DNA of 64,000 bases from Schmidtea polychroa. Lineage: Eukaryota. The stretch lies in contig CM097886.1 in the NCBI GenBank assembly GCA_044892525.1, positions 93,000,001 through 93,064,000 of the forward strand. Reading direction: 5' to 3'. Below the pieces are notes generated by a model that was not told the DNA's origin, did no database searches, and saw nothing but the letters and a program-made list of their open reading frames with translations. A program made the translations under genes and the position numbers. Positions 7,001-51,430 of the stretch are shown here, piece by piece. Every line of letters starts with the position of its first letter. Positions within the stretch are counted from its first letter, which is position 1.

Positions 7001-7989
7001 AAAAGTAATAAGCGCCGTCAAAGAAAATGAGCCAATTCCCTTCAATTGAATTAAACCTCCAAGAGGAAACCCGGGGGGAAATTGGACTAAAGATAATTGG
7101 CAAAAATAAAGTCAATTATTAAACGAGTATAAAAGCAACTGGCAAGAAAACAAAATGCCAGTTGGTCGAAGAAAAGAAAATAGAAGTTTGAAGAGAGCGA
7201 AAAGGGAAATATTAAAGTTAGTAGAAATTAAACCATTTAAAAATCGAACGTACCAGAAAGGGACATCTCCCGTTGGAAGATCTACCCCTGCGTGAGATTT
7301 GTTGGCAAATTGAAAAGTGCAGACAAAACCTGATTGTATCAAGTGTGAGTAAACTAATACAAGTGTAAAAGTGTAACTGCATCAGTGTCAATAAAGATTT
7401 TGTGTTGGGTTATTTATTTATTTGGAAAAGAACACAAAGGAGTCAGACCGCAGTACCGACTTACATTAAAAACCCAACAAATAGAAGAAATAATTTTTAT
7501 CTTTTACCTTAAAATTTAAAATCAATTTATTTATTATTAATTCAAAACTAATGTTAATAATTTGTCCTACTTTAAAAGATATTGTTGTACTAAATATTTG
7601 CCTTCAAAATTAAAATTGATTGCACCACCGGACTCAGCTATTATGGGAAGAAGGATAACGACACCGGTACCTCACTCGATGTTCCTTACTATTCTCTGGA
7701 TCATAGCTGTTACGGGTGGTTTAGTCGACCTCGTTGGTATCAGGTAATTACATTTTTTGTTCTTATTACACCATTCAATTTAGTCTGGAAATGGCGTAAT
7801 GTTTCGCGACTTCAGTCTCAATTATCTTACAATGTTAATCACTACCAAGTGTCGCTCATTGGTTCATATGGTTCTTCGGCAGGCGGCGCTTCTATTGACG
7901 GATGTGCTACCAATGTGTGATCGATTCCTTTCTCCTATTGGAATTTTAACGGCTTTTTGATATTATATTCTCGGTTTCTTGCTGTATTG

Positions 7990-10900
7990 TGTTGGGCTAG
8001 AAGGAAAGGTAATAATTTAAAAAGCATAAGAGGAAAACAACAAGAAATAAAATAAAAACCAAAAACAAATCGAAAATAAATTAAAAATACAGACAAATAA
8101 ACAATAAGAATAAATAATAACAAATTAGCCAAGAAGAATTAAAACAAAAAAATAAAAAATGAAAAATTAAGATAAGGAAACCGGAAAAAATAGTAAAATA
8201 ATAGAAATTAAATAATAAATAAGAAAATAAAGAAAAAATAAAGAAAACAGTAAGGAAACACTAAGAAAACCATGAAAAACAAAGAAACAGAATTAAAATA
8301 AAATTTTACATCGCGCTCAATTTTGATTGGCTCGCATAAACACAAAAATAAGTATTTAAGGGAAACACTGAATCAGAATTTTCAGTGTTAACCCAGAGCA
8401 TTGTTAAGGTAAAATTTTATTTTTGCATACAGCAGTGTTAACCCAGAGCATTGTTAAGATTTTCAAGGACAAACTCACGGACTATTCAAAAACTCTAGCC
8501 GATAATCAAGGACAAATTGTAGAAACTTCTAGCCACCTATCACTCGAGGATCCATTTTATTTTTCGACAGAGAGGATAATCAAGATTTCAAGTAAAATTT
8601 TTATTTATTGGAGGAATTTTAATAATTTAAAATGTTGAAAGTAACTGCAATTTGTTAGAAAATTAAATGTTTCAAAGTGACAGTGTTTTCCTTACTTACC
8701 CATTATTTGTAGTAAATTATTTTCAACTAGTAAAAATTTTTATGATTTTAAATGCAATCATGCTCAATAACCCTTATGATTTAGATATGAATTTTTATTT
8801 TTTTGTTTGCATATTATGTCGAAGGTTTGATGAGTAAATGAAATCATAATTTTATTACATTTTCCGTGAAGCTGAGGTTCAGCTGGTCACAGCTCGAGGG
8901 ACACTAGTTGTTCCTCTTGCCAGAAGGCCAGATGTTACATCAGCGGCGCAGTGGTTAAAAAAAGGGTCATCGTGGGGGGTTTCCTCAGTGATCGGTCACC
9001 ACAGGAGCGAATAGAGACTCGTGTCAATCAGTTGGCAAGTGGAAATTTGGTAAACATTTCTTGTGAATGGTTCTCGCAATGGCTGGGATGTCTGACTCGT
9101 TGTTCGTCGACGTTATTTCTAATCAAAACACTCTCCCGATCGGTTATTAGCCGTCGTCGAAACTAGGATCCTTCGTCAGATCATTACATCAGAAATCTTA
9201 ATGCCAGACTTCTGATCTTTCAAGCATTCAAGTGACCCAATATCACCGAATAGGAAAATTGGCAAACTGCGCTGCCATATGTCTTTGATTCAGTATCGTT
9301 GTTCTAATAACTGCACTATAGTGAACTTGAGCATTCAGATAGGTTGTCTCGATAAATTCGATTTTCAGAAACACCCGAGTAGGGGAGGTGACAGAATTTT
9401 CTCGCCCCAGTAAGAATAAACACTCCTAGCCAGGATAAACGAGTCTCTAACAGGATAAGATCATGATAGCAATTATTTACTACTCGTATCCGATCAGATT
9501 TCCTACTGTTGATATAAACATCATGAGAGTTTTTGATATCATTACGACCCGATAATAGGTTTTTGAAACAGGGTGGGAATTCACTTTTAAAATTCGGTAC
9601 ATCAGATTAATACCTACAGGCAAGGTTGCATACAGAATAAATTTTCGGCCACTGAGAACCAATAGCTGTATTTTAGCACAATCCACCAGCAGAGATGAAC
9701 CAATCCCCGAACCTGCCTCAGACAGATATTCACATAAGCACCAAAGACCGATTATAACTCGGATAACGACATCTGTCGGATAATATGGCCTGCGTAGTTC
9801 AATACTTCTGTCAGGATAACAAATATGACTACACATAATTACACGGGTGATATAATAATTCGAGTAGCCACACTAAATTTATGGTTAACTAATGTGATTG
9901 ATGAACTTTCAGCTAATTCCCACAATGAAATTTTCGCGATCAAGTGAAATCTCACTATACACACGAGATAAAATCGTACAATCATATTTAATAAAATTGC
10001 TAATTTAACCTAAATCGTCTCCCAGTAAGCAATGGGGACCCACTTAAGAAATCTAGATACTCCAATATCGTGCCAGTAAAGTTCTTTTCAGGGGCTACCA
10101 ATTTTATAAACTCAATTGATCAGTTATTTGTTCGGGATGCGTGAAACAAAATTAAATAAATAAAATAAATGGAAATTCTCTTCATTTGCTAAACGAACCC
10201 GAGCCCCGATTTTTCTCTAACGTGATGCTTGGGGAATTGACTGATTGTTGTTTAAGTTTATGATTTGTGGTATTAGTTAGGGTAATGATTATGACAAGTT
10301 ATGAGTGTTGCCCTGGTTGTTGTTAATGTTACACCTCTAATCTTAATTTTTACAATCACGATTTTTCTTAGTTGTTGTCTTTAATATGGTGATCATCATT
10401 ATTTCTTTTTCCTTGTAACGGATTGAATGGAGAATGGAGGATGTATTGAAATTCGAGAAAACTTGACGACGACATTTAATTAATTTACCTGTTCAGAATG
10501 TCTAAAACTCCCATATCAACCACTGTTCTACGCCCGTGCTTCTCTTACGCGGACAAGAACCTTCTCATAAAGACGCTCCAGACTCAAAATGGCCTCCTCA
10601 AGAAGAAAGTCGACCATTTGGAAGGAACCTACTTCTCCCCCGCATAGATGAAAGAGGTGAGAACAAGGCTCACCAGGGCAGAAAGATGTTGTAATGAATT
10701 GATCGAGGAGAGCCGTGCTTTACGAGCTCTGATCAAGGAAAAATCTGTGGCGCAGCACCAGGTTTACGTACAGGCGTCGGTTACGAAGAGAATAGTAGAT
10801 ATTCCAATTTCTGAAGAGGATAATCTATTTCCGTCCCATCACCTTCAACTAAAAGCCATCGTGACGTCTACCGATCAGGCCAGTGTCACTAGTTCAGTTG

Positions 10901-11746
10901 CCCCAAGACTAACAACCTCTTCTGACCCCGTTTACATGGGCACTAGTCGAGCTGCACCTATAGTGGTAGACCTAGTAAACCCGGTCACTCTTCCGGAGGC
11001 AAAGAAAGTCACCAAACGCCGGCAACCTTCTAGGGCCGAGCGCACGAAGAGGAGAAGGGCCCCCCAGGCCGAAAGAGAAGCGGCTCTGATCGCCGTCGTT
11101 CAACTATCAGCTCGCGGAATCTACACCTCAGTCTCTTCCTATATTCAGGGTAGTCCCGCCCACCAGTACAGCCTGGGAAGAAGATGATCGAGATTTTTTC
11201 GACCTTGATGAGTTATTTGCAGGAACTTCTCCAACCACCTTATGATTTGAAATCTATAATATCTAAAATGTTGATCATGCATGTATTTTTTTTGTCGTGT
11301 CTTATGAATATATCTTGTTGTTGTCGTTTGTAAATATGTTTTCCTGCTGTGGGGTAATTAATGAACTGATTGTGAGGGTTTGTCTGAGCATTGCATAGGG
11401 GTAGACTGGCGAATTGGATGTCGTAGTAGAGATTGGTCAATGACAGGAATGATGTATGAGATCTTTGAGTGATGAAAATGACGTAAGTCCTTCTAACGGC
11501 CGTCGAGTAACAGTTAAGTCGAGTTTCGATGAGGGAGTATTCCTAAGGCAGGGCTCACCTGCCTCATCGTGGCCCGCCGACATGGCACATCACCAACATG
11601 ATGCGAATCATGGGTCTCATGCTCGAAGTGTGATCGTGTGGGTTTTGGTTAAGGGTCCGTTGAAACGATGAAATACTGTGTGTGTATTTAGGACTATCAT
11701 CCCCTGGTATGTGAGAATATTTTCTGACCCGACCCAAGACCCAGCA
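7990..11746 (+). mobile_element. 3757-bp TG...CA element, probably a giant solo LTR, carrying ORF-B
   Basis: Starts TGTTGGGCTAG and ends GACCCAGCA, flanked by 4-bp direct repeat ATTG (7986-7989, 11747-11750). Homologous along its length to 39306-43389. Confidence 0.85.
10498..11245 (+). pseudogene. ORF-B copy with a premature TAG (10645) and a late frameshift
   Basis: TTCAG|A ATG start; PCFSYADK, DHLEGTYFSP, KRRQPSRAERTKRRR and FFDLDELF motifs shared with the intact copy at 39910-40668. Confidence 0.85.
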
Positions 11747-34104: not shown

Positions 34105-34714
34105 TTAAAATAATAAATGAATTATCAAAATTTTACTGGTAACATCCGCCTGTTTTTCTCGACAAGGTTGAGTCCGTTCCACCCGAGTGCGGAATTTCCG
34201 TTTCGGTTTTTCAGGTGCGATTGTTGGAGCGGGGGCCACAACAGGCGTCATGGTAGCAGTTGGGGCCATGCTAGTGCCGATATAGATCACCTCAGAGGCG
34301 TTGACGTGACTGAACTCTCCCATGTACTCGAAACTTAGATTGTTTTGGTGCGCTGGGTCCTTTTGTCAAATGGTGACTGGGGAAAATGTTCACTCGGTCT
34401 TTAGCAGGACATTCCGCGATGCGTTTTCTGAGCTCGGAATTCTTATAGATTTGATGAAGAACTCTCGATTGCTCTCGAATGAGGATACGCTGCGACCAAT
34501 TTTCTTTCATCGGGCTATCCCTGCAGTGCTCTAGACGGAGCACTTTCTCATTGGTTTCTTTCATCTGGACGGGGGTGAATCAGGTCCCCTCCATATGATC
34601 AATACGCTTCTTCAAATGTCCGATTTCTGTTTGCATTGTGCACATTGACGCATTTTTATCTGCGCAACAGAAGCAAGGTAGCAGAGTTGATTTCGGGGCA
34701 TTTGGTCCTGTCAT
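34105..34714 (-). pseudogene. Decayed ORF-B copy
   Basis: TTTAG|AA ATG start; PCFCCADK, DHMEGT*FTP and NIFPSHHL motifs; contains a stop and a frameshift. Confidence 0.8.
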
Positions 34715-35352: not shown

Positions 35353-36769
35353 CCTGCAAGTGAACATTATTGTTTAATAAAATTAAAACAAACTGCCATT
35401 ATTAGTTAAACATCTCCCATCAGGTGCGTGAATTCTCTATTTGATTATTTAATTTTAATTTCATGACAAGCAATCCCTAATCTTTGGACCCACTTAGTGA
35501 AAGTTGTGGAAACTATCATGTTTGAACTAACGGAAGTTGATGATGTATTCATTGTAGAATTAGATGAAATATATTCGCAAAAATCAATGTTTACTAAGAC
35601 GTTGTCAGATCGACCCGTACACTTGGTATGGTCGTCGGCTATTTCCGTTGTATATATCATTGATAATTATCTCAAAGTATACCATGAACCGGTTAATGTT
35701 CCGTGATGTAAGTATCGTTTAAGTCGGATGTTTATATTAGTGGTACTCTTGACATTTTGCTATGCAATATTCGAAATGGAATAATGGTCGACCATACGTT
35801 ATGTTGGGCTAAGAATAAGAAAAAATATTTTTCTCATTTTTAAAATCATAGTTTCCTTTTCTTTTAGCTAGGAACTAATAATCTAATTCTTCATAGAAAA
35901 GGTTTCCCGCATTGAGAAAACCGACTAAAATACCTAAATAGTAAATAAAAAGCAATAAGTCTATTTAAATAAAAAAACAACACCAAATAAAACAAAATAA
36001 ATATATCCAAAAAAACTAAATAAAAACAAAAATAAATAAAATCCAAGAAATGCAAGAAGTTGCACACGATACATAAAAACAGCAAAACGAATATAGAAGA
36101 ATAAAACATGCACAATATCCAACCAGGATGGAGAGAATTAATTAAATTATAAAATAATTAAATAATCAAAGGAAAATATAAAAAGAATAAAAAACCAGTA
36201 AAGCGGAATTTAAAAGCAAAAAATAAAAAATTACCAATTGTCACCCATACTCAATCCTGACTGGATAATAAACAAACGCGAACGGTATATATAGGTCCCT
36301 TTTAGTCAGTTTATTCAATGCTATTAGTTACTAATTCTTAGACTCTGGATTAGCGGACAAATTTTTAAATTATTCTACCGAACCGAACCGAAACTCAACT
36401 CATTACCGTTCTAACGTATTCAATTCAAGAACCAATTTTACATCTATAGTGTGAGCCGAATCTTTGGAAATCAGTAGTAAATTTTATTTGTAATTTCTAT
36501 GATGTATTTCTATTTTGTACTGTATGCTATAGTAATGTATAAAGTGATTGTAACAATATTTATTTAAAAATCAAAATAGTTTGGTCGGTGCATGGAGAGA
36601 TGGCGATGAAGTAAAATATATTAAATAAGGAATCTATAAGGTTTTAAATGTTATGTGCATAAAACTGCACAGAGGGTCTGAAGGGGTTAAAAAGATCGCT
36701 CTGCTTTTCCTCTCAAATGATAATTTCGAATCTGTAATTTTCATAATGAAATTCACAGTAGGAGTAATG

Positions 36770-37467
36770 TTTTGCAGACAAGAATGCAGCCAATAAATCT
36801 CTTCAGGCCGAAATCGGACATCTCAAAAAACGAATAGATTACATGGAGGGGACTTGGTCTGCCCTTAGCCAGATGAAAGAATCGACAAAGAAAGTCCTCC
36901 AGTTAGAATACTACAAGGACAGCATGCTGGAGGAGAACAGAGCACTGCGCGTACTCATTCGCGAGCAGGCTCAAGCCCTGCACCGAATATATTTCGGAAT
37001 TGGCAAAGCGCATTGTAGAACTGCCAATTTTAGAAAATAGTAACATTTTCCCAGCCTTGCATCAATCCGAGATTTCAAGCTCCCGCAAACGGACGATCTG
37101 TACGAATCACAACGAGCGTCCATCTTTCCACTCTACCCCAGATATCGTCTACAAGGGGACAGGTCTAGCCCCCGCCAAAATCACCCCTCTATAGGCAGCC
37201 TCAACATATGTAGTAGCAACGGCAAAACTGAAACGCCAGTCATTCACTCGAGCAGAGCGCACAAAACGACGCAAGAAAAGACAAGCAGAAGCCTTACTGA
37301 TCTCGTCTAATGCAAAAATGGCGGCGGAACTCATGGTCACCATGGATACCTCCAAAAAAAATTCTTACACCGTCGTCCCAGCCTCAGATACTCCTTGGAA
37401 TGAAGTAGACCACTCTGAGTTTGAATTGACCGAGCTACTCAAGGAAGCCGAAGGCAATAATTCCTGA
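36770..37467 (+). pseudogene. Decayed ORF-B copy, downstream of another TGTTGGGCT start at 35802
   Basis: DYMEGTWS, LEENRALRVLIREQ, SRAERTKRRKK and PWNEVDHSEFELTEL motifs. Confidence 0.8.
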
Positions 37468-39305
37468 ACTCAACCGGCCATGAACACGTCGTCGCAGCAT
37501 AAATAGAACATGTGACATTTGGACTTATGACCATCTGTTTTAGTATGACATGAATCGTGAATACGGTTTCTGTTATAGTCGGTTAGTCGATAGGCATGTC
37601 GTATCGGATGTTGTGTAGCTTTCATTTTGTCTGTTATATATAACTTTATGCTTTGATTTTATTTCATTATTAGAAGCTGCTAAAACATCTTCTAAATTGT
37701 TTTTTAAATCCGGTTCAAAAGTTAAAGACATAATTCCAAATATTTATTTTAATGAAATATTGTATAATTTCCAAACAATTTTTCCGCATTGAATAAAATA
37801 TTTTCAAAACCATTTATCAAAATATTTCAATATTTAAAACATAAAAAGTTTTCATTAATAAAACTTCTTTTTTAAAAAGCTTTTTTAATTTTTAATTAAA
37901 AATTTCTACTTAAAAAATCCAATTTAAAAATTATTTAAAAGTTATTTTAATAGTCAATTATTTACAATTTAAAATTATTTTGATAAACGATTGAAATATT
38001 TAACTCTCAGCTGAAAACACTTCACATCCCCCTTCTTTAAGAAATTTCTTCATCTTTTCAACATTTCTTTGAAGCATTTTCCCACTTTGGTCTTGTTGCA
38101 GATATCGGCGATCATGAATCTTCTGGATTATTCTGTATGGCACATCGTATCTTTCCTTGTCTTTCGTTCTTGATTCTACTTTTACCAGAACCTCATCTCC
38201 AATATTGAATGATCTCTTTGTCTGCGTTGTTTCTCTTGTATCTTCTTTTTGTGAAATCGTCGCTTTACTATGAAATTGTTCTCGAGCTATTTTTCTTCCA
38301 AATATTACTTCGTCCATTTGATTTCTGAAATGTTGCATTCATGGTAAATTCAATCTCTGGTATGATCTCTGCCCAATCTATTCTACTTTTTTCTTTTAAT
38401 GATGTATTTATATAGTCTCTTATTGTCCTGAATTGACGTTCTATTACACCATTTGTATTATGGTGATATGGACTTGAAAAGCATAGTGATTTTGTAATTG
38501 ATTTTGTAAACTCTTTCATCGTCTTAGATTCAAACACTTTTCCACAACCTGTGTGAATTTCCTTTGGTGCTCCAAATCTAAGAATCCATTTTTGTAGTAT
38601 TGTTTCCTTCCCCATTTCTTCATCCTATTTAGCGACAGCAGTAAGAGAGATATATTTGCTAACTTGATCAATCATTGCGACTATATATCTTTTTTTTCTG
38701 AATGTTTCCTGTAATGGGCCACATATATCAATGTACATTTTTACGGCTCCTCTGGTGTCAGCTTTATTGTCTCTTTCTTCATCTTTGTTGTCACAACTTT
38801 CGTTTTTTGACATGCCTCTCATTGCCCAATTGTTTCTTTTACTGATTCTTTTATGTCTTCCAAATCGTAATTGTCCGCTAAATATTTTGTCACCTTTTCT
38901 TCTCCTGTGTGTGATAGCAAAATATGCATACTCTTTATCATTTCTTGTCTTTTTCTCTAGGTATCCATATCTTACTCTCTATAGTTTTTATCACGTTGTC
39001 TACCAGTATAAATTTCCAACTTGAACCCTGTGCTATTTCTTTTTTTATATGTTCTATTTCTGTATTATCTTTTTGCCACTTATTATCTTCAGCTTTTTCC
39101 ATCGTGTTTATTCTTCGGATTTTCATTCTTTCCACTTTCGCGTCTTCGTGTGCCAATAAACATTGTGTGCATGTTCCACATGTACTCCTTGACAACATAT
39201 CTGCATTTGCATAATCAGTACCTTTTGTATACTCTATTTTAATATCCAGACTACTGAGGTAGTTAATCCATGTCTAAAATTGCGTTGTTATTGGTTTCTT
39301 TGTGG

Positions 39306-42300
39306 TGCTGGGTCTTGGGTCGGATCGAAATCGTACTCCACTCACACTAGGGGTGATAGTCCTAACTACACAATCAACTCATCATCATTCTACAGGACCC
39401 TTAACCAAAACCCACACGATCATACTCCGAACATGACACCCATGATTCACATCATGTTGGTACTGTGTCATGTCGGCGAGCTACGATGGAGCAGGTGAGC
39501 CCCTGCCTTAGGACTACTCCCCCATCGCAACTCGACTTCACCATCACTCGACTGCCGATAGAAGGACTTACGTCACCCTCATCATTCTAAGATCTCCTAC
39601 ATCATTTTTATTTGTCACCAAACTCTACTACAACATTCAACGCACAAATACTATCGTATTTAGCGTTCACCAACGAGCTTTACCACATTACTCTCATCTG
39701 TAACCTTACTACGTTCAGCCTTATCACATCCCTTCCACGTCTTAGTTCCATCACTCGTTATCGAATCCCCTAATCAATACTTCATCATACTCAAGCATTC
39801 AACATCGTTAAATCTGACGAGTCACAATAAAGAAAAATGTATTGACGAATTATTAAATTACAAGTGCATTGCTAGGTACCACAATTTTTGGAGAGTAAAG
39901 CAGATACCATCACAGGGTGCTTGGAGAAGCTCCAGCGAAGATCTCATCGAGATCGAAAAAATCTTTAGCATTTTCCTCCCAGGAGGAGTCGACGGGCGGA
40001 ACTACCCTGAAGATAGGGGGAGAATGCCGGGTGGATTCTACCGGAGGTACTGGAGCTGGCGGTTGCACAGAGGCGATCAGAGCCGCTTCTCTCTCGACCT
40101 GGAGGGCCCTTCTTCTTTTAGTACGCTCAGCCCTGGATGGCTGGCGACGCTTCTTGCTCTTCTTCACCTCCGGAAGAGTGACCGGGGTTGTTAAGTCCAC
40201 CGTCCTGGGTTCAGCTCGACTTATTCCGGTGTAGACGACTTCAACTGAAGCTGTCGGCTGAGAAATGCTCGTGTGGCTTAAGTTGGCCTGGCTTACTGGT
40301 TTCAGCAACGAGATACCTGAGAGGTGGTGAGACGGGAATAAATTGTCTTCCTCCGCGAGTGGGATATTGACTATTTTTCTTGTGACTGACGCTTGGACGA
40401 ACACTCTGTGTAGCGCCTCGGACTGCTCTTTAATGAGGGCACGCAAAGCGCGATTTTCTTCTAGTACGTCGTCGCGACATTTTTCCACTCGGGTGAGCCT
40501 CGTCCTCGCCTCTTTCATTTGAGTGGGGGAAAAATACGTTCCTTCTAGGTGATCTGACTTCTTCTTGAGGAGGCCAATTTGCGCTTGCAACGTCTGAATC
40601 ATCTGATTTTTATCAGAACACGAAAAACATGGGCGCAAAATCGTGGCACTGGTTGAAGCTTTCGACATTCTAGAAATGCAAATATTTTCGTTAACCCTAC
40701 TATTCCTCATTGTACCCAAACATCATTCCTCACGCCTCGTTCCATCAGTTCCCCATCATGCCAAGTATCCATCAATCGGTGTTGACGCTGTTAACCAACA
40801 AAGACGACACTCACGACCATCACATCAATCCCAATAACCACAGCAAAACCATAACAAGACTCATGATCATACTCATAACGAGAATTCCCAACTATAACAA
40901 TAATGACACCGACCATAGTAGCAACAACAACGAGAACAATTAATAACAACCACAACAACAATAGTAATGATCATAATAATAGTAATAATAATAATAATAA
41001 TCATGTTAATAACAAACCGACAGTCATATTACTAATTCTGATAATGATTATGTTAAGAATAATTACTAGACGCAGTAAAAATCACCGTTCATACACATTA
41101 TCTGCCTACGTCCGTTGCGCTAGGGAGAGGAAAACAGAGTTTATTTAATTTGCAGGGAAATAATACCTCCCCCTTCAAGAAAACACTTTAATTACTTTGA
41201 ATTTGTTGTAAAGGTCGTAATCTCAATATCAAGTAAGTGAGAATTTCAGATTTAGCTATTCCGATTGTTATCAGTGCAGGTGTTAACGTTAGTTGGATAT
41301 TAATTTTTGCACTCTCCATCTACTGAGTGTGATGTTCATGAATATTAGTGACAAATAGTTTAGCGGCAAGTAATGCATTACGCGTATGGTGGGAATGAGT
41401 CTTATGTGTATCTATCAGTTGAGATTAAATAATTCCCGGTGGTGTTCCTGTGTGTGTGATTATCAATGATGTGATTTTCGCGCATGGGGCATTTACTGTT
41501 GGAGTTCATCTAGACCATTGAGTCTCTCGTGCAAATAATCATCTGCGTTGATATAAAAAAATTTTTTTATCTCGGTGATCTACCCGTTGTGAATGAGTAG
41601 CCAAAGCGGCCTGCAATTTTTGTGATAGTGCTATCGCTAATACCGTACTGGAGTAAATGCGAAGTTTTATGGAAAAGTTTGACTCTGATCCGGAAAATTC
41701 GGTTTACGACGAGATGAGTTTGAGTGTGATTTAATTGTTCGAGTGGATCCCGTGAGGTGGATATACTTAATGCTATGTGGGTGTGACATGCGAATATCAA
41801 GATTTTTAGAACTCAGTTCTCGTTTAATTTTCAAATAATTATTGTTAGATGGAGATTCATGATTTAATTTGTGGAAACGGGATTTTGCTGCGAATTACCT
41901 ATTTCGCGATTTATACCGATTTCGGATCAATGGAGACGACAGTTTTACTGGTCAAGATTGGAACTAGACGTACTGAATTTCACGCAACGTACCAGAGTTA
42001 TAATTCGCGAAATTTTGAAAATAATTACTACATCTCAACTTAAGTCTAAGATTTTAGTAGCAAATTTCACATATCACTGATGTATTCAAGGTGATCTGAT
42101 AGACTCAGATTTACGAATTTTTTCATGAATATGGTGTTTTCATTTCCATTACTACTCGGGTGTTCTGTGAGAGCGTCGATTCTACGGTGGTAACCATCGA
42201 ATTTATGATGAAGAAACATAGTTGACACGACGTGTACATTTATCTGAATTGCGATACTGACAGTGAAGATCAAGATGTAGTATATTCTGATGATATTGAA

Positions 42301-43389
42301 TGAACGAAGATTGGATCGCCCTAGCCATTGCGAAGAGTCTTATTCAAATTTTCCGAAAATTTCCACTTCTTTACTTGCATCAATCTCCTTTACAAAATTT
42401 TAGTTCCACTCTTCCCGTAGCGACGGATCAGTGAAGAAGCCCCACGATGACCCGCTCAACTACCACGACGCTGATGTTGCACTTGACCTTCTGGCGAAAG
42501 GAACAACTCGTGTCCCTCAAGCGGTGGCTAGGTGAACCTCAGTGTCGTTTGATATCAACAATAAATAGCATATTAACATAATTTATAATAATAAAATTTC
42601 ATACTATTCCAAAATCTAAATAAGAAAGAATTATAAGAATTTCATTCAAAATTTATTGGTGAACAGGGGAAACTTCATTAACAAAATTTTGTTTAATTAA
42701 AACCATTATCATCATTACTATACGCTTATAATTACTATAATAATTACTATAACGGTTTATGATAAATAACAAAATTTACTTCGTATAACTTTAGAAAGGT
42801 TCTCCGAGTGATTTAGCTAGATTTAAATAGTCCTCCTGATGATTTGTCTAAATTTGAATAGTTCTCTGAGTGAGTTGTCTATCTGATCCTTGAATTAGTC
42901 CGGTATAGTAGTTGCGAAGTGCCTTAACAATTTGTTTTATTAACACTCCACATGTAGGTTTAATGCGCTTACCTTAACAATTTGTTTTATTAACACTGAA
43001 AATTCTGTTTCAGTGTTTTCCTTATATACTAATTTTGTGTTGATGCGAGCCAATCAGAATTGAATGCGCCGTAATGTTTTTATTTAATTCGTTTTCTTTG
43101 TTTTTCTTAGTTTTCTTGGTGTTTCCTTACTGTTTTATTTTATCTTTTGATTTATTTTCTTATTTATTATTTAATTTCTATTATTTTGCTATTTTTTCCG
43201 GTTTCCACATCTTAATTTTCATCTTTTATTTTGTGTTTTAATTCTCTTTGTTTAATTTTTATTATTTATTTCTATTGTTTATTTGTCTATGTTTTTAATT
43301 TATTTTCACTTTGTTCCCTAATTTTATTTTTATTTCTTATTGTTTTCCTCTTATATTTTTAAATTATTATTTTACTTTCTAGCCCAACA
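39306..43389 (-). mobile_element. 4084-bp TG...CA element (giant solo-LTR-like) with an intact ORF-B
   Basis: Minus-strand termini TGTTGGGCTAG...GACCCAGCA and 4-bp TSD GTGG (39302-39305, 43390-43393), inserted in the Gypsy RNase H region. Confidence 0.9.
39910..40668 (-). CDS. Intact ORF-B, 252 aa: CxxC, coiled coil, basic cluster and acidic-aromatic C-terminus; function unknown
   Basis: Open frame with ATG one base after a TTCTAG acceptor, as in the other copies. Confidence 0.75.
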   Translation of the reverse strand: MSKASTSATILRPCFSCSDKNQMIQTLQAQIGLLKKKSDHLEGTYFSPTQMKEARTRLTRVEKCRDDVLEENRALRALIKEQSEALHRVFVQASVTRKIVNIPLAEEDNLFPSHHLSGISLLKPVSQANLSHTSISQPTASVEVVYTGISRAEPRTVDLTTPVTLPEVKKSKKRRQPSRAERTKRRRALQVEREAALIASVQPPAPVPPVESTRHSPPIFRVVPPVDSSWEENAKDFFDLDEIFAGASPSTL

Positions 43390-45429
43390 GTGGATAACAT
43401 AAACGTGATAGCTTTATGGTCCGTTCTCAAAATGAACCGTTTTCCATATAAATAATGATTGAAGTGTTGACAAAAATAATAGATTGCCAACAGCTCTTTC
43501 CTTGTTATGCAATATCCCTTTTCATAATTCTCATTGCATGAGAACCGTATGATATAACCTTTTCGCACCCGTTGTCGTTTTTCTGCTCCAATCGTGTCAA
43601 AACTCGCACCAGTGTCCAGAATGAATTCTCTTTCGAAATCTGGAAACCCTAGAATAGGTAAGGACACTAAAGTATTTTTCATATTTTCGAATGCGATGTT
43701 GCATCCGTCAGTCCAAATTAATTTTTTGTTGTTTAACCCGCATAGCTCTTCTAAAACTCTTGTCTTTTTTGCGTATTCTTTTATAAATCTTCTGTAGTAA
43801 TTGCATATTCCTAGGAAGCTTTTCAGATTCTTAACACATTTTGGCTTTTCAAATGATTTAATCGCGTCTAGCTTTGATAGGTCTGTCTGTATTCCATCTT
43901 TGTTGATTATGTGACCTAAATATTTGACTTCTTCTTTAAGGATATGGCACTTTTTAGGGTTTATCCTAAGACCCGCCTTTCCCATTTTTTCCAGCACTTC
44001 ATTTAAAACTTCGTAGTGGTCATTGATCGTTTCTATAAATATCAAAATATCGTCTAGGTATACTGCTGCATATCTCGTACCCATTAATACTTTTCCCATC
44101 AGTTCCTGAAATGCACCTGGTGCCGCTGGTATTCTAAATGGCATTTTGTTAAAACAGTATTGCCCTGATTTGGTTGAAAACGCCATTTTTAGATTTGATT
44201 CATCTTCTAGTTCTACTTGATAATATGCATTTCCAAGATCTATCTAACTGAAATACTTTGCTCCACCCAATTTATCTAACATCTCTGCTATATTCGACAT
44301 AAGGAATGCCTGTCTCTCTGTTACTAGGTTTAATTGCCTGAAATCAAGACATAATCTGATATCTTGCTTTTCTTTCTTCCAGACACATATTAATGAAGTG
44401 TTCCATGGCGAATTACACTTTTTGATAGTATTGTTTTCCCATAAGTTTTTTATCGCTTCATCTATTTTACCTTCCAAGTTGACTGGTTGTCTCCAAGGTT
44501 TCATATTTATCGATTTTCCTTGAGTTTCTATTTTATGCTTCAACAACTTTGTGCAGCCAATGTCCCATTTATCAGCCATAAAAACATTTTGATTCTTTTT
44601 TATAAGGTTTAGTAGTATCGGGTTATTTATCTTTAAAGTATTCTTTGCTTTTTGAAATCGTTCCATCTCCATTATTGTCTTTCCAAATTTGGCTTCGATA
44701 CTGCATATGTGCTCTTGCTTCGTTTTCTCGATCTCTTCTACTGGCCATTTTAGTTGTATACCAAATTTGTTTTGCAACTCTATACCACCAATTACCTCTG
44801 GAGTCATATATCGTACTATCGTGAATTTTACCCTTCTTTTCCTGCAATTTATTAATATTTCTAATATTGCTTTACCTTTTGTTTCTAAAACACTATTATT
44901 TGCACATCTCAATGTAACAGTCGTTGTTGTTAGTTCTACATCTTTAAGTTTCGCAAATTTGCTCCAACTCATGACATTTACTGTAGCTCCTGTATCGAGC
45001 AAGCATTCTATCTTCTGGTCTTGTATTCTAATAGTTACACTTGGTCGGCCTTGCGCTTTATCATAACTGATAATATCCTTTTTCCATTCATCTAAGGTGA
45101 GTATTTGTATATTTTCTCGTTCTCTTTCTCTTTCTGCAACATCCTTTTTATGAATCTGTTCACTTTCCTTATTACATTATTTTTCTCTTCCGTTGCCTCT
45201 GTATCTTTCACATATTTTTCTATAATACGTGATATTTTACTTTTATTATAATCATTAATAATTTGGGAGTCAGCAGTCTCTGTATTTATCTTCTATTCTT
45301 TCATCACTTGGTTCGTTTATGAATGCTTGTTTCGAGGACCCCACCAGGGCAAATGCACTGGACCCTTTAAAATCCTTCGGCACAAAGAGAATAAAACCAC
45401 TCTCTCGAATAAAATCATGAAATCATTAA

Positions 45430-45510: not shown

Positions 45511-47989
45511 TGTATATAATTTTAAATTGTTTCCATAATACTTATTTATTATTATAAATTATTATAAATTTGGTCTGTATATGACAACGAAATAAACGCC
45601 ATACCAAGAACTCAAATCAAATTAGAGCGTTGCCACAGAAGATGGCAAATATTGGTTGGAAAAAATCATCCTGGAATATTCTACATATTATTTTACGGTG
45701 AATAGCGTATAATTTAAGTTTATAGATTTTTATTGTGGAAATATTTTTCTGCATCTTTTTCTTTAAATTGTTTATTTATCATATAAAATTACTTTGTCGT
45801 CCTTTAAGCCTGTCAGCTATCTGTCCTCGTTGGCTTTTTGCCTATGTCAGCCTTTCGTCTATCGGCCTTTTGTCGTAGACCCTATATAACTAAGAGCCAC
45901 CAGAAATAGTTGAGATCTCACTCCAATTTATGGAGACCTCAACAGTTAGCAGTGTTTTACCAGGAACTAAGGAAATAAACATAGGTACAAACCAACAATT
46001 TCTGTTAACCAAGACACGCTTTGAAAGATATCAATAATTGTTAGTTTTACATTTCACTGAGAACACCAACAAATTCTAACTATTTATAAAAATAAATCTT
46101 AACTAAATATCGCTTAATTAAATAATTGCTTAATTAATTAATAAAATGTAATAAATTAAATAGAAGTGTTGGGCTAGAACTGATTCCTAGACCCAAACTT
46201 CTAATTGTGGCTGCAATGTGTAAGTACACAACATGCAAAAAGCAAAAAGTATAGTCAAATATTAAAAATACACCAAATAAACAATATTAATTAAAGGAGA
46301 AAACAACAAAAACATAAACACAGAAATTAAATAAAATTATACAAAAGCAAGAAGTGATGCAAAAATCGAACTCAAAAATAACCAAATAAACACAGAGTTA
46401 CAAAAAACAGACTCGAATAACTTAAAAGATGGTATAAACATTAAAAATTTCCAGAAAAACCCAGAACATTCCATAAAAATGGCGATGACCATCACAAAAG
46501 CCATCTAGAACAACAAAAGTTAGAGAAAATAAATAAATTAGTATTAAAAATAAAAAATCTTAAAAAGAAATTCATAAAACATCAGTTAAAATAAAAATTA
46601 AATTAAAAGTAATATAGAATGTTCTGGAACCGTTCCAAATCCATCATGGACGTAAAATTAATGAAAAATAATTAAAAAATAAAAATTTAAAAATAAAAAC
46701 AAAAATTATGGCACAAAAATTGCCATTAAAAATATCAAAATCGCTAAATAGAAAATTCTGGAATAAAAAGAATTCGAGTTTGTTTTAATGCATCAATACA
46801 TACACGTGTACAAAATAGGTATATATACTGACACGTTTCAGCCACAAATAATCATTATTTTATGCCAAAATTTTTTTGTCAACAAAATATCAACAGTGAG
46901 TACTATTGCTTCATTTTATTTATTATTATTTTATTTTATTATTATGTATCTATTGTTGACCCATCTATGTTAAACGATTAAAATGGTTTATATTTTGATT
47001 TTGTTTAATTAATTTTTTTTTGTGATGTACGAATGTTCAACGGCGTACCGGTATTCCTGCGTCGTTGTTCAGTCCTGCATCCAATTTAGTAAAAATCTCA
47101 TAGGACATGTAAACCTGCATTATTTATATTATATTAATCCATATTATACGGCTCTTTTTGTTCCGGTCAGCCGGAGGTCGAACTACTTCATGGTCCTGCC
47201 ATGGAGTTAGGTCGAGGAAACCCTCCGCCTGACTCTTTGTATTTATCTAAGGTCAACCGTAAATGGTTGACTCAGCACACAACACTAAGGTTTGTGGAAA
47301 TGGTCACAGTGGGGCCATGGAAGCAATACTCTTCCCGACCTTTTACGTAACACATATTTAAATTCAACATTTAAAATCAGTACAACAAAAAATACACTAA
47401 GGTCCTAAATTGAGTAGAACTCATACCTAAACTTACACAACTATACAAATCACACTAATGTAGCTGGTTGATCGATAATAATATTTTTGGTACACTTGGA
47501 CATATGCCGAATTAGGTTTGGTAATAGAATCTCATGGTAATTGGAATAATAGAAATGGTAAAATTATTCGGCCTATGTCTAAGTAGAGCTTAAATCTGGA
47601 TAGACCTGTGAATTAATCATCGACTTAATGGATCCAACGTAAGGGAAAAGGTTATAAATCTAAAAGAATTTCGAATCTAAGTTCTCACTGTAAAATATTC
47701 ATAAAGGTATAAATAATTAGTTATAACTTTTATAAATAATTATAATAGCTTAGAGATAATTCTATTGACCTTAAAAAGTAAAACGTTGACGGATAAATCC
47801 CGATTAGGAGTTATAGAGTCGGCGTATAAAATTTTGTTTTATGACTAAGTATATGTGAATGTGGAACTTCGGGAAATGTAACTTATAGACAGTTACCAAT
47901 AAACCTGAAAAATGTTATAAGACGATGTAGATCACATAAAAGTAATCTCATAAAAGGTCATATAAAGCTGACTAAAGGATCGTAAATCG

Positions 47990-48660
47990 TAAAGTACCAA
48001 AACTATAAATTATAAACCTAAAATCGTAAATTACTGAACATAAAACTATAAACTATAAATTAAAAACCTAAATTTCTAAATTGTAGACTATAAAAGTGTA
48101 AAGCATAATTATAAAGTCTAAAATATCGAATATAATATTATAAGTTATAAAACTATATAACTATGGGTTAAAAATCTAAATTCCTAAATTGTAGATTATA
48201 AAAGGACAAATCATAACTACAAAGTCTGAAATGTAAGATCGTAAAATGTTGAATATAAAATTATCACCTAAAAACTATATAACCATAAAGTAAAAATCTA
48301 AATTTCTAAATGGTAGACTATAACTGTATAAATCATAACCATCAAGTCTAAAATATAACATCGTAAAATATTGAATATAAAATTTAAACCATATAACCAT
48401 AAATTAAGAATCCAAATTCCTAAATGGTAGACTATGAAACTATAAATCTGAAAATATAAAATTAGGAAGTAGAAAATATAAAATTGTAAAATGTTAAATA
48501 AAAAATTTATAAATTATAAAGTGTATAACGAGAACTTATAAAGTATGAATTTATAAACTGTAAGATATAAAATTGGAAATTGTAGAACGAAAACCTGTAA
48601 AGTGCAAAATGTAACATTCTAACTCATAAAATATGAATCTCTAAATTCTGAAAGACAAAA
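47990..48660. repeat. Degenerate ~110-120-bp tandem repeat array running into an N gap
   Basis: Recurring AATTYCTAAATKGTAGAYTAT anchor at ~48071, 48179, 48301 and 48415. Confidence 0.75.
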
Positions 48661-49825
48661 TACGAATNNNNNNNNNNNNNNNNNNNNNNNNNNNNNNNNN
48701 NNNNNNNNNNNNNNNNNNNNNNNNNNNNNNNNNNNNNNNNNNNNNNNNNNNNNNNNNNNNNNNNNNNNNNNNNNNNNNNNNNNNNNNNNNNNNNNNNNNN
48801 NNNNNNNNNNNNNNNNNNNNNNNNNNNNNNNNNNNNNNNNNNNNNNNNNNNNNNNNNNNNNNNNTTGTTATCCTTGTTACCACCATTTTTACTGTTATGA
48901 TCATAATTAGTATTACTTACTAGGAAAGCAAAAATCAATTATTGATTTTTTTTTCTGATTTCCCATATCTAGATTTGGAGTCAATTCTTTTGCCCAATAA
49001 AAACGTTCCTAACCTAAAAAATCTATATTTAGCAACACCCCCCCCCAGAGAAACATTAAGGAAAAATTCAAGACTGGGATACGACCATCAAGAGTTTCCA
49101 GGAGACGGTGAGAATGACTCCGGCGAACCATGCAATTGAATAAATAAGCCATAATTCGCAGAGATTTACTTACGTACAGAATACAAATATTTCCGGAAAA
49201 TTTCCCAATTCTGCGAGTGATAAATTGCGGGTCCAAATCAAATATTGGGCATGAAATGACATTCCCTGGGAAGAATTATGGGAAGACTACTCCAAGCTAA
49301 CCTATTCCCTCTTACTCGATCAAGGTTCATAATAATATCACCTAAAAAAAAGGAATTAGAAAAATTAAATAAATTACTTGCATGTAGAGCAAACCACTCA
49401 TAACGAGCACAACTGAAGGAAAGGTAAGCAGACGAAGAGCTTAGTTCGTTGCTAGTACCTGTCGCTCCAGCGTGCCCCAATTTAGTGGCCTAGAAATGAC
49501 GATCTAAAAACCTCACATTTTATTAAAATATAAATTAAAATTCATAAATAGTAATTAAAATTACCACTTAGTGGTAAACAAAACTTTTGAATGTAAATGA
49601 TTAATTTAAACAAACGAATTTTGACGAAATTCCTTTTTTTGTTATCTAGTTGATAAAGTATGAGATCTTATTCTACTGTTCCTAGGATTATAAATGCTAG
49701 TTTTAAAATAAATGATTTTTTCTTTAACTTTGAATTTTTAAAAAAAGGAAAATGGATCAACAAAATCCCGTGTTTAACCTCGTAATACAATTTATATAAA
49801 GCGGCCTGATTGTTACTTTGTAGAA

Positions 49826-50191
49826 ATGTCCTACTCTGACAGCAGCAGCATCGAAGAAGACGATCGGCAGACGATCACCCGACTCCGTACCCGGTACATT
49901 TGGTACCACATCCATCGGTGGAGTCAGGGACGGGACCTGAATTGCGCAGATCGAGTGATCCGGCAAGGCCCCGAAGCAGATGCCCCGGCGTGGGTGAAGA
50001 CGGAGCCGGAGAACAACCGGTTGCAGGAAGCCCGCGATCAAGCGGCCTGGGACGTAGAAGCCGCTCAGATCCGGCTTAAGAAGATAGACTTGCAAATCAA
50101 GTCAGAAAGGGAGGGGGTGCCCCTAGAAGAGTTACAGGAAGCCGAGGTACCCCCGAGAAAGAGAGGGAGGCCCCGCAAGTATCAATTGTGA
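49826..50191 (+). CDS. ORF-A, 121 aa, acidic N-terminus and C-terminal AT-hook (PRKRGRPRK)
   Basis: Intact ORF with ATG two bases after a TTTGTAG acceptor; homologue at ~6.0-6.4 kb. Confidence 0.7.
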   Translation: MSYSDSSSIEEDDRQTITRLRTRYIWYHIHRWSQGRDLNCADRVIRQGPEADAPAWVKTEPENNRLQEARDQAAWDVEAAQIRLKKIDLQIKSEREGVPLEELQEAEVPPRKRGRPRKYQL

Positions 50192-50481
50192 TTAAGAGCC
50201 GACATTTGACTTACTTCAATAACTTCTTATTTATTGGGTGTGGCTTAATTAATGATCAATCTTGACTAATGTTTGTTGTTAAATAATAATTTCTTATTCA
50301 TTGGGTGTGTCTTAATTAATAACTACAATTGACTGGGGTTTATTATCAAATGAAGTGGTTTCTTTTTAAATTGAGTTGTAAGTAACAAGTATAACAATGT
50401 CCTAGCGACACATTATTAGTATTGATTAATCAGAAAACTCTTTTACCATGTGTAAAACTAATAACACCCTTTATGTTTTCA

Positions 50482-51003
50482 GTGTATAAGTTAATGGAAA
50501 ACCTGCGGAAGGATCGGGAGCAGGCCCAACAACAAGCAGACGAACTCCAGACCCGAGTAGATAAACTAAAAGGGAAATGTCGGGAGTTCGAGGGGACCTG
50601 GTTTAGTCCCGAAGCGATGAAAAGGAAAACCACCCAGATTCTCCAGCTGCAGACACAGGCCGCCCAGGATCAAATGGAGATTCGCGCCCTAAGATTGCAG
50701 GTGCGTGCGCTCGAAACCGAGCGGAACGAGCGGTTTGTGCAGGAATCCGCAGCAAGACAAATACGGCCGTTGACCGTTGAGCTCGCAACAATCTACCCGC
50801 CCGCCGCGGAAGGTAAACCCAAACGAAAGCGGCTCGGGCGGAACATTCGAGAAAAATTAAAGAAGGCCAGGCTGGCCGAGTACGAAAAGCAAGTGGACTC
50901 ATCGCAAACGTCTACGACGGGACTAATTGGCCCACCAACAAGCCGAGTTGAACTGTTATTCCGTTTTTGTAGTGTGTTTTGTATATTTGTAGTATTAAAA
51001 TAA
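50482..51003 (+). CDS. ORF-B (EGTWFSP subfamily) exon; 3' end probably not native
   Basis: TTTCAG|TGT acceptor conserved with the 5.6-kb copy; coiled coil followed by a basic KPKRKRLGR cluster. Confidence 0.6.
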   Translation: MYKLMENLRKDREQAQQQADELQTRVDKLKGKCREFEGTWFSPEAMKRKTTQILQLQTQAAQDQMEIRALRLQVRALETERNERFVQESAARQIRPLTVELATIYPPAAEGKPKRKRLGRNIREKLKKARLAEYEKQVDSSQTSTTGLIGPPTSRVELLFRFCSVFCIFVVLK

Positions 51004-51430
51004 TATTTTTTTTTGCTGATAAAATAATATATGTTTGGTAGCAGTAAAATGATGTCTGATATATTTATGATTGCCTGAGAAACGAGAGCTTGTGCGTAAG
51101 GTTGGGAAAACAATTTTGATAAGGGACCTAAGGAAATCGGACACAAACCTTCTAACGGTAGTCCGTGAACCCATGGAGTACTCGACGATTATAGTGCCTC
51201 GATGCGCTCACTTTTCGCGGGTACTCAACCCCTTGGTACAGTACCAACGTTGATTACTCAACGGGTACCAAGCGGAAACTAATGTTGTATTTTGGGTTAC
51301 GCTGGTAACAGCACTAAAGAGCAAAATATGTGATCATCAGTAACCCACCACTTGTTTTCACTTGAATCATTACTAATGAAGCATTTTTTTGGAAAAGCGC
51401 TTTTGCATTTGGTTAAAAACACTATAGAAA

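What the first reader, a model, noticed from the sequence alone, without database searches (positions are those of the whole stretch)
39306..43389. 4-kb TG...CA elements that are complete transcription units: giant gene-bearing solo LTRs?
Seen: two diverged copies (7990-11746 and 39306-43389) each have an exact 4-bp TSD, only a 7-bp imperfect terminal repeat, and no transposase, RT or integrase. Both have a CCAAT and TATA-like box ~350 bp in, a tandemly duplicated block ending in a splice-donor-like TAAG|GTAA, and ORF-B directly after a splice acceptor. Known: TG...CA ends with a 4-bp TSD fit Gypsy LTRs, multi-kb LTRs exist in giant retroelements (plant Ogre, planarian Burro), and some retroviruses encode accessory genes in or near the LTR. 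Inference: solo LTRs that seed an expressible accessory gene across the genome, or a new non-autonomous element class.
Basis: partly seen in the sequence, partly recalled or inferred. Interest (0 to 1): 0.75.

Follow-up and report, generated by a model that had tools for sequence, protein, structure and literature searches.

The report
Gene-bearing LTRs with self-restoring intron
These two 4-kb elements are lone terminal repeats left by giant Burro-type retrotransposons; each repeat carries a conserved gene for a likely RNA-binding regulator and a 25-base duplication that likely lets the element splice out a tiny first intron and rebuild it at every copying round.

Summary
Observation confirmed. 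Both elements are solo LTRs of Burro-type giant Ty3/Gypsy elements. In sister subfamilies, ~30-kb parents have two 99.2-99.9% identical LTRs, 4-bp TSDs, a tRNA-Pro primer site and (one scanned) a 4,811-aa gag-env-pol-ankyrin frame. The window's own subfamily was found at 5' and 3' junctions, but not as one intact pair. ORF-B lies inside the LTRs, is under purifying selection (dN/dS mostly 0.04-0.19), occurs at 2,160 or more sites, and has no known family. It is a predicted coiled coil plus an Arg-rich helix; copy B is open, copy A broken. The 'duplicated block' is the surprise. It starts at the predicted cap site (24 of 30), ends at a donor, is identical within an LTR but differs between LTRs, and its second copy carries branch point, AG and a hypervariable, G-enriched 5' junction. 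This fits a ~50-nt intron spliced from the genomic RNA and restored at first strand transfer (inferred; no transcript shown). Two covarying RNA structures and no polypurine tract were also found. The scan noted Burro polyproteins in this genome before, not these LTR features. Two key Burro papers could not be read.

The parts
39306..43389 (-). Copy B: solo LTR of a Burro-type giant Gypsy element (4,084 bp), TSD at 39302-39305 and 43390-43393
   Evidence: homologous LTRs at 5' and 3' junctions of Burro internal regions
42998..43389 (-). Copy B: A-rich U3-like region with inverted CCAAT (43050-43054) and TATA box (43021-43028)
   Evidence: same layout in 37 LTR promoters
42973..42997 (-). Copy B: repeat copy 1 = predicted 25-nt first exon, from predicted cap site to donor D1 (GTAAG at 42968-42972)
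   Evidence: start 32 nt from first T of TATA; TSS inferred
42923..42972 (-). Copy B: predicted 50-nt mini-intron = spacer + repeat copy 2 (42923-42947), with branch-point-like TTAAT and terminal AG; G directly 5' of copy 2
   Evidence: splicing inferred
42413..42542 (-). Copy B: conserved structured RNA block 2 (two hairpins) inside the predicted ORF-B intron
   Evidence: 12 of 28 pairs with two-sided change; no Rfam match
39910..40668 (-). Copy B: ORF-B, 252 aa, open; acceptor AG at 40670-40671; CxxC motif, predicted coiled coil 17-100, Arg-rich helix 179-201, acidic-aromatic tail
39423..39574 (-). Copy B: second donor D2 (GTAAGT 39566-39571) followed by structured RNA block 4 (two long hairpins); AATAAA at 39607-39612 upstream
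   Evidence: (23 of 35 pairs with two-sided change)
7990..11746 (+). Copy A: solo LTR of the same subfamily group (3,757 bp), TSD at 7986-7989 and 11747-11750
8326..8360 (+). Copy A: inverted CCAAT (8326-8330) and TATA-like box (8353-8360)
8383..8458 (+). Copy A: repeat copy 1 (8383-8408), donor, predicted 50-nt mini-intron (8409-8458) ending in repeat copy 2 (8433-8458), G directly 5' of copy 2
8872..9006 (+). Copy A: structured RNA block 2
10498..11187 (+). Copy A: broken ORF-B (acceptor AG 10495-10496; stop at codon 50; frame lost before the C-terminus)
11480..11630 (+). Copy A: donor D2 and structured RNA block 4
38268..45176 (-). Host element: an ordinary decayed Gypsy pol (protease, RT, RNase H at 43359-45176; integrase remains at 38268-39273) into which copy B inserted
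   Evidence: empty-site joint

Best explanation
The two elements are solo LTRs of Burro-type giant Ty3/Gypsy retroelements, likely left by recombination between the two LTRs of a ~30-kb insertion, and the LTR is likely an alternatively spliced regulatory unit whose first intron is rebuilt during reverse transcription. SHOWN: LTR identity; ORF-B inside both LTRs of parents and under purifying selection; repeat geometry; covarying RNA structures; tRNA-Pro PBS. INFERRED mechanism: Pol II starts about 31 nt behind TATA at repeat copy 1, which is a 25-nt exon ending in donor D1. (b) Minus-strand strong-stop DNA, ending in the complement of exon 1 (often plus a base copied from the cap), anneals in register on copy 2 of the unspliced 3' LTR; extension recopies spacer, copy 1 and U3. 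The intron is restored and copy 2 is overwritten by copy 1 each cycle. (c) D1 joined to the acceptor before ORF-B removes ~2.3 kb and gives ORF-B mRNA, likely ending at an AATAAA between ORF-B and D2, so a solo LTR with an open frame could still express it. (d) D2 likely serves the downstream genes (a RING ORF follows an acceptor 270-480 nt behind the PBS). ORF-B protein is most likely an oligomeric Arg-rich RNA-binding regulator of the element's own intron-retaining RNA, Rev/Rex-like, acting on block 2 or block 4 (about 40%; a Tat/Tas-like activator about 30%). Odds: solo LTR 0.97; ORF-B a real selected gene 0.95; self-restoring intron 0.7.
For: Parents: C3:115101812-115131394 (LTRs 3,819/3,818 bp, 99.8%, TSD CAAA), C1:177111146-177139671 (99.2%, TSD CCTT), C1:53151213-53181720 (LTR 4,183 bp, 99.9%, TSD TTAC; 4,811-aa frame with gag, CCHC, fusion protein, PR, RT, RNase H, IN, ankyrin); ORF-B in both LTRs of each. 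Window subfamily: LTR end + PBS at C4:84433681 (followed by gag, 79% to a parent) and C1:26826084; LTR start behind Burro internal sequence at C1:212614054, C1:118363239, C1:251006921, C1:255159118, C2:29859730. PBS equals the 18-nt complement of the genome's tRNA-Pro(UGG)+CCA. dN/dS 0.08-0.19 whole frame, 0.04-0.11 in the core, for the 12 unsaturated pairs with dS of 0.3 or more. Repeat: present in 30 of 37 promoters; starts 30-32 nt from TATA in 24 of 30; copies identical in 25 of 30 although 25 different repeat sequences occur; period 45-52 nt; G directly 5' of copy 2 in 14 of 30 against 3.5 expected; branch-point-like YTRAY in 26 of 30 against 5.2 by shuffling. In the window's subfamily 9 different repeat sequences, 14 of 15 pairs identical; the 6 bases before copy 1 take 2 forms, those before copy 2 take 14; four copies 94-97% alike share the first 22 spacer bases and all differ in the last 3. 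Four copies have lost exactly one unit and one has gained one. Covariation 0/500 shuffles for both RNA blocks. AATAAA 139-185 nt before D2 in 10 of 10 LTRs of one sister clade.
Against: No transcript, splice joint, cap site or poly(A) site was shown; the one read-laying listed no D1 joint. No intact two-LTR copy of the window's exact subfamily was found. The proposed mini-intron acceptor is AAG, a weaker type, in 14 of 30 copies including both window copies. Copies are related, so the G and branch-point counts are not independent trials, and sequence before copy 1 is promoter and constrained for that reason. Single-unit and three-unit copies also fit plain slippage. Two short-LTR types (2 of 37) lack the repeat and a Burro1-type LTR in the window shows none at its donor. 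AATAAA before D2 is at the shared place in only 9 of 23 copies of the window's subfamily, 1 of 5 of the youngest clade has one, copy A has none. ORF-B has no Pfam, PDB, viral-fold or Atlas match; the model is weak (pTM 0.29); the only Rev hint is a sub-threshold hit in one distant homologue (E 0.0013); the acidic tail looks more like an activation domain than an export signal. The RNA structures were derived from the alignments they were scored on, which hold two main clades.
Confidence: 0.68

Rival explanations
1. Solo LTRs as above, but the 25-nt repeat is a promoter-proximal tandem duplication kept alike by slippage or gene conversion; there is no mini-intron and no restoration step.
For: Short close repeats can homogenise (general knowledge); single-unit and three-unit copies exist; AAG acceptor in 14 of 30; no RNA proof.
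Against: Does not explain why the repeat begins at the TATA+31 position and ends at the donor in clades with unrelated repeat sequences, nor the branch point, the fixed ~50-nt period, or the hypervariable G-rich junction before copy 2 only.
Confidence: 0.17
2. ORF-B is a transcriptional trans-activator of the LTR (Tat-, Tas- or Tax-like): coiled-coil dimer, basic helix binding DNA or a TAR-like hairpin, acidic activation tail; thousands of solo LTRs would then be both sources and targets.
For: Conserved acidic-aromatic C-terminal motif in the three main clades and in several database homologues; block 2 lies within 500 nt of the start; a sister LTR type adds an ORF with an AT-hook-like motif (sub-threshold).
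Against: The Burro1-type homologues lack the acidic tail but keep coiled coil and basic helix; the LTR's retained introns create a need for an export or splicing regulator.
Confidence: 0.3
3. ORF-B acts on the host, not on the element (like nef or the MMTV superantigen, or like Burro's apoptosis-related cargo), and sits in the LTR only for dosage or early expression.
For: Burro carries host-directed domains (PMC6431247 section 7); a Burro1 IAP is reported to protect stem cells (PMC13465017, passages citing Lee et al. 2026).
Against: No likeness to any host family; Arg-rich helix and neighbouring RNA structures point to nucleic-acid binding; short-LTR elements without ORF-B persist, as expected for a trans-acting factor of the element.
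Confidence: 0.2
4. The 4-kb units are a non-autonomous element class that moves as a unit.
For: Solo copies far outnumber PBS-linked copies in this subfamily (65 exact ends without PBS against 2 with).
Against: The same sequence flanks Burro internal regions on both sides; solo copies have no PBS; every feature is that of an LTR.
Confidence: 0.03

Closest known systems
Burro / GYPSM1 giant Gypsy-like LTR retrotransposons of planarians (Jurka 2007; Grohme et al. 2018, as described in PMC6431247 section 7)
   Same: About 30 kb, multi-kb LTRs, one ~4,800-aa frame with gag, CCHC knuckles, ubiquitin-like, fusion-type env between gag and pol, PR-RT-RH-IN, ankyrin; RING/TRAF/MATH accessory frame.
   Different: The review describes no gene, intron or RNA structure inside the LTR, no 7-nt spacer before the PBS and no missing PPT. 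The clade linked to the window has MATH in a separate downstream frame and showed no BIR hit; BIR was seen in another clade. The original papers could not be read.
Complex retroviruses with LTR-linked regulators: HTLV-1 Rex/RexRE, HIV Rev/RRE and Tat/TAR, MMTV sag and Rem, foamy Tas (Rex, Rev and U1-based poly(A) control from PMC12789967 passages; Tat, Tas, sag position recalled)
   Same: Spliced small regulator with Arg-rich segment; structured RNA in the LTR; donor near the poly(A) region; MMTV sag is encoded within the LTR (recalled).
   Different: No sequence or fold homology found. Here the gene lies downstream of the promoter inside the LTR (R or U5, not U3), so a solo LTR holds promoter, exon, acceptor and frame together.
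Penelope-like elements that retain a 5' intron in the pseudo-LTR (bioRxiv 10.1101/2021.04.23.441226, passages)
   Same: A retroelement keeps a small 5'-UTR intron in its terminal repeat despite an RNA phase.
   Different: Different class of element; mechanism stated there as unknown. Here an integrase-type LTR element, with an explicit exon duplication that would restore the intron at strand transfer.
Ogre elements of plants (PMC6431247 section 7)
   Same: LTRs of 1.9-6.5 kb and extra ORFs.
   Different: Extra ORFs lie in the internal region, not in the LTR, per that review.

Membership tests
Solo LTR of a Ty3/Gypsy element | TG...CA ends with 4-6 bp TSD and no internal region | tested here: met
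   Both window copies; 11 of 12 genomic copies with exact 4-bp TSD
Solo LTR of a Ty3/Gypsy element | Same sequence occurs as paired direct repeats around gag-pol | tested here: met
   Intact pairs in three sister subfamilies; the window's subfamily seen at 5' and 3' junctions in separate, interrupted copies
Solo LTR of a Ty3/Gypsy element | tRNA primer-binding site behind the 5' LTR | tested here: met
   18-nt match to tRNA-Pro(UGG), 7 nt behind CA; 191 exact junctions
Solo LTR of a Ty3/Gypsy element | Polypurine tract before the 3' LTR | tested here: not met
   Longest purine run 3-4 nt in the last 40 nt in 12 of 12 junction variants; a conserved GC-rich structured motif instead. This concerns the parent's priming, not the LTR status of the repeats
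Ty3/Gypsy | Domain order PR-RT-RH-IN | tested here: met
Burro | Total length about 30 kb with multi-kb LTRs | tested here: met
   28.5, 29.6 and 30.5 kb; LTRs 3.8-4.2 kb
Burro | Single ~4,800-5,100-aa frame with env-like fusion domain between gag and protease, ankyrin repeats | tested here: met
   4,811-aa frame with those domains; same order in a decayed copy
Burro | MATH/TRAF, RING, BIR, BCL2-like accessory domains | tested here: inconclusive
   RING and MATH met; BIR only in another clade; no BCL2 hit in Pfam scans
Burro | Sequence assignment to named Burro-1 to -4 / GYPSM1 | not testable with these tools
   No repeat library held; Grohme 2018 and Lee 2026 not held
Rev/Rex-like export factors | Arg-rich RNA-binding motif | tested here: inconclusive
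   Arg/Lys-rich predicted helix conserved in all clades; binding untested; Pfam REV sub-threshold in 1 of 19 homologues
Rev/Rex-like export factors | Leucine-rich nuclear export signal | tested here: inconclusive
   By eye on the alignment the C-terminal motif is acidic-aromatic, not a clear export signal; no predictor run
Rev/Rex-like export factors | Binds a structured response element and exports unspliced RNA | not testable with these tools
   Candidate structures exist
Rev/Rex/Tat/Tas protein families | Sequence or fold homology | tested here: not met
TIR DNA transposon or MITE-like element | Terminal inverted repeats and a transposase partner | tested here: not met
   Only a 6/7 terminal match; parent is an RT/IN element

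The most novel reading that the evidence does not exclude
Burro LTRs are self-contained regulatory genes with a self-restoring intron: an exon duplicated inside its own intron lets an LTR retroelement package spliced genomic RNA yet regenerate the intron at every first strand transfer, while alternative splicing from the same donor makes a new family of Rev/Rex- or Tat-like regulators from more than two thousand LTRs, many of them solo.
Probability: 0.55. Interest if true: 0.87.

Novelty: new variant of a known kind. Interest (0 to 1): 0.72.

Why it matters
Retroelements normally lose any intron that is spliced from their genomic RNA (general knowledge); Penelope-like elements keep one by a route called unknown in the paper read. 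These LTRs offer a concrete, testable solution written in the sequence, with a built-in record of cap sites and strand-transfer errors in hundreds of copies. They also show a complex-retrovirus-like design (LTR-encoded regulator, structured RNA elements, two donors) in an invertebrate Gypsy element. At least 2,160 ORF-B sites exist, so solo LTRs may supply the regulator in trans in stem cells, where Burro1 is reported to matter for regeneration. Automatic gene models already splice this frame into host genes, an annotation trap.

Tried and rejected
PBS search with a 0-4 nt gap missed the site because the spacer is 7 nt; the flank listing excluded PBS-linked copies by my own pattern design; one search corrected this. 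Idea that the LTR runs the other way and self-primes like Tf1 (note 1): rejected, the shared flank is the 3' end of the internal region. Idea of an antisense ORF-A at block 2: rejected, frames are not kept between clades and the block covaries as RNA. Ribozyme-like reading of blocks 2 and 4: no Rfam match at E up to 1 in five loci. Word-indexed protein search with ORF-B alone: no hit among 1,418 candidates. Atlas, viral fold and PDB sequence searches: nothing significant. Expression: no RNA holder listed; contigs of four runs guessed to be RNA touch ORF-B and the conserved blocks but cannot show strand, level, start or end, and no D1 joint was listed; a 25-nt first exon is shorter than the contig word and the mini-intron product is identical to unspliced sequence from copy 2 on, so this is no test. 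Splicing in the youngest subfamily remains unexamined. Start at copy 2 instead of copy 1: rejected, it would not overwrite copy 2 and TATA spacing fits copy 1. Literature: searches gave no description of an LTR-internal Burro gene or a strand-transfer-restored intron; cap copying by RT could not be confirmed from a held paper and is recalled. Grohme 2018 and Lee 2026, with figures and supplements, were not held and may show the LTR frame.
Full report
1. Observation. They share four blocks (85%, 76%, 69%, 81%). B interrupts a decayed ordinary Gypsy pol between RNase H and integrase, and contigs from three runs of two studies show that host sequence joined across 39301/43390 with four ambiguous letters. 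A DNA search of the own genome (G000, 781 Mb) gave 67 matches from 40 of 3,067 candidates scored; 11 of 12 distinct copies held with both ends have an exact 4-bp TSD. Promoter boxes, repeat, donor and acceptor are present. ORF-B is open in B (252 aa) and broken in A.

2. Parent. Among the first 100 of 122 listed left-end flanks, one sequence recurred five times. It is the 3' end of a Burro-type internal region: upstream, on the strand of ORF-B, lie gag, CCHC, ubiquitin-like, fusion-type env, protease, RT, RNase H, integrase, ankyrin, RING and MATH. Intact pairs were found in sister subfamilies: C3:115101812-115131394 (LTRs 99.8% alike, TSD CAAA), C1:177111146-177139671 (99.2%, TSD CCTT) and C1:53151213-53181720 (99.9%, TSD TTAC, one 4,811-aa frame with the Burro domain order). 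Both LTRs of each carry ORF-B. These LTRs share the 5' block, the 3' block and ORF-B with the window copies (65-76%). The window's own subfamily stands before a PBS at two places, once followed by 7.6 kb of leader and gag 72-83% like a parent, and behind Burro internal sequence at five places; all are interrupted or truncated, so no intact pair of this subfamily was seen. The PBS lies 7 nt behind CA (191 exact junctions) and is the 18-nt complement of the genome's tRNA-Pro(UGG) with CCA. No PPT precedes the 3' LTR in 12 of 12 junction variants. This matches Burro as described in PMC6431247 (section 7 read in full), which mentions nothing inside the LTR. Solo formation by LTR-LTR recombination is established knowledge.

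3. ORF-B. A codon-degenerate pattern for its N-terminal motif has 2,160 exact matches and 0 for the reversed control, against 771 3' junctions and 191 strict 5' junctions, so roughly 600-1,200 copies lie outside junction-marked LTRs (rough, my estimate). dN/dS is 0.08-0.19 over the frame and 0.04-0.11 in the core for the 12 unsaturated pairs with dS of 0.3 or more; most between-clade pairs are saturated; the two closest pairs give 0.54 and 0.27 on few changes. Selection therefore acts on replicating lineages, while inserted copies decay: 9 of 24 copies of the window's subfamily keep a full frame from Met (one search counted 10, one lacks Met in frame). An acceptor AG stands 0-9 nt before the ATG in the LTR types inspected. 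AlphaFold on an 18-row alignment predicts two long helices (17-100), an Arg-rich helix (179-201) and short C-terminal helices, with pTM 0.29. No Pfam, PDB, viral-fold or Atlas assignment. A profile search of 1.84 billion proteins gave 19 hits, most fused to unrelated host domains, probably gene-model artefacts; they keep the coiled coil and an Arg-rich run, and 1 of 19 has a sub-threshold Rev hit.

4. Structured RNA. Two non-coding blocks are kept in the long LTRs aligned. Block 4 starts with a second donor and forms two long hairpins: 23 of 35 pairs change on both sides, 96% of cells pair, 0/500 shuffles reach the score, slid controls 35-44%. Block 2: 12 of 28 pairs, 95%, 0/500 for the score but 138/500 for pair types. 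G-U cells outnumber A-C cells 78:5 and 49:4, which favours the sense strand but is biased by the way the structure was derived. The 14 rows fall into about two clades. No Rfam match.

5. The duplicated block. Of 37 LTR promoters held (2 of the 39 rows dropped as truncated or deleted, 1 as not a promoter, and L138 added), 30 have the pair by script, one more by eye, four have exactly one unit and two short-LTR types lack it. Copy 1 starts 30-32 nt from the first T of TATA in 24 of 30, the expected cap position (general knowledge), and ends at AG|GT. Copy 2 lies 45-52 nt on and ends in AG (AAG 14, CAG 11, TAG 5; the script required AG, and exact 12-mer matching gave the same geometry in 23 variants). 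A YTRAY motif lies 10-28 nt before that AG in 26 of 30 against 5.2 by shuffling. The two copies are identical in 25 of 30 although 25 different repeat sequences occur. In the window's subfamily 14 of 15 pairs are identical across 9 sequences; the six bases before copy 1 take 2 forms and those before copy 2 take 14. A G stands directly before copy 2 in 14 of 30 against 3.5 expected (nominal p 2e-6, copies not independent); both window copies have it. Minus-strand transfer joins cDNA made to the RNA's 5' end onto the 3' R copy (PMC5399748 and bioRxiv 10.1101/2022.12.06.519325, passages); that RT adds untemplated bases and can copy the cap there is recalled, not confirmed in a held paper. These marks put the transfer junction at copy 2 while the promoter puts the start at copy 1. 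The simplest reconciliation is that the 50 nt between are spliced from the 5' end of the packaged RNA and recopied from the 3' LTR. This is inference from DNA alone.

6. Rest of the transcription unit. AATAAA lies 139-185 nt before the second donor in 10 of 10 LTRs of one clade, 84-90 nt before it in 9 of 23 of the window's subfamily and in 1 of 5 of the youngest clade; B has one at -41, A none. A long R with ORF-B inside is thus likely but not settled. Donor-mediated suppression of a 5' poly(A) site is described for HIV-1 and foamy viruses (PMC12789967, passages). A RING frame follows an acceptor behind the PBS, a likely target of the second donor. Expression was not shown.

7. Function of ORF-B. 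The genomic RNA must retain a 2.3-kb potential intron and the second donor, the LTR holds two structured elements, and the features shared by all homologues are oligomerising helices and an Arg-rich helix. I therefore favour a Rev/Rex-like regulator (about 40%) over a Tat/Tas-like activator (30%, supported by the acidic tail) or a host-directed factor (20%). It works like such a factor at most; it is not a member of those families.

8. Novelty. The element family is known; solo LTRs are ordinary. An LTR-internal selected gene in a Gypsy element, and above all an intron restored by strand transfer, were not found in ten literature searches. The closest precedent read is intron retention in Penelope-like elements, called unexplained there (bioRxiv 10.1101/2021.04.23.441226, passages). 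PMC8532177, PMC13465017 and PMC11410931 (passages) mention Burro without LTR detail. Grohme 2018 and Lee 2026 and their supplements were not held and could show the LTR frame. Earlier scan notes report a Burro polyprotein and gene-bearing BEL/Pao LTRs in this genome, nothing on this ORF or repeat. Verdict: new variant of a known kind, interest 0.72.

Noticed in passing
window 46167-51350 (+): A 5,184-bp LTR of another Burro clade (82% to the 3' LTR of a BIR/TRAF-bearing element) with two frames behind acceptors: 49826-50191 with an AT-hook-like tail and 50494-51003, an ORF-B homologue without CxxC and acidic tail. Flanks GAAG/CTTG do not match. The same LTR type is followed by an 8-nt spacer and the tRNA-Pro PBS in L049 and L150.
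   Followed up: partly
window 4950-7479 (-), 30402-31140 (-), 34295-34579 (-), 36768-37037 (+): Further Burro LTR remnants and ORF-B fragments; at least four LTR-derived copies lie in this 64-kb window.
   Followed up: partly
3' junction of parents, e.g. L039:3870-3920, L101:9527-9576: No polypurine tract; a conserved GC-rich, self-complementary motif ending in GAGTGATT precedes the 3' LTR (771 exact junctions; 12 variants). TGATT also follows the 5' LTR. Plus-strand priming is unexplained.
   Followed up: partly
5' junction of parents, e.g. L099:7631-7655: Seven bases (eight in another clade) separate CA from the PBS, longer than the usual 0-3 (recalled); integrase would have to trim a long end.
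   Followed up: no
L130:6355-6849 and homologues: A ~160-aa coiled-coil plus RING frame lies between PBS and gag, directly behind an acceptor.
   Followed up: partly
G000 C1:130.90-130.95 Mb (L151): tRNA-Pro(UGG) genes, the predicted primer, in a 475-bp tandem array; 2,190 matches genome-wide.
   Followed up: no
window 17869-27849: Polinton/Maverick-like region: TBP-like frame (17869-18327, -), A32-like ATPase, integrase, adenain protease; capsid-like and polymerase-like frames by eye.
   Followed up: no
L138:5111-6963, L141 (-): Short LTRs (1.4-1.9 kb) with the same PBS but no ORF-B; some parents span only about 11 kb between junctions, likely non-autonomous derivatives.
   Followed up: no
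proteins P0002-P0019: Database homologues of ORF-B are mostly fused to unrelated host domains (SNF, GDC-P, CRAL-TRIO, PTP and others), likely gene models that absorbed an intronic solo LTR exon.
   Followed up: partly
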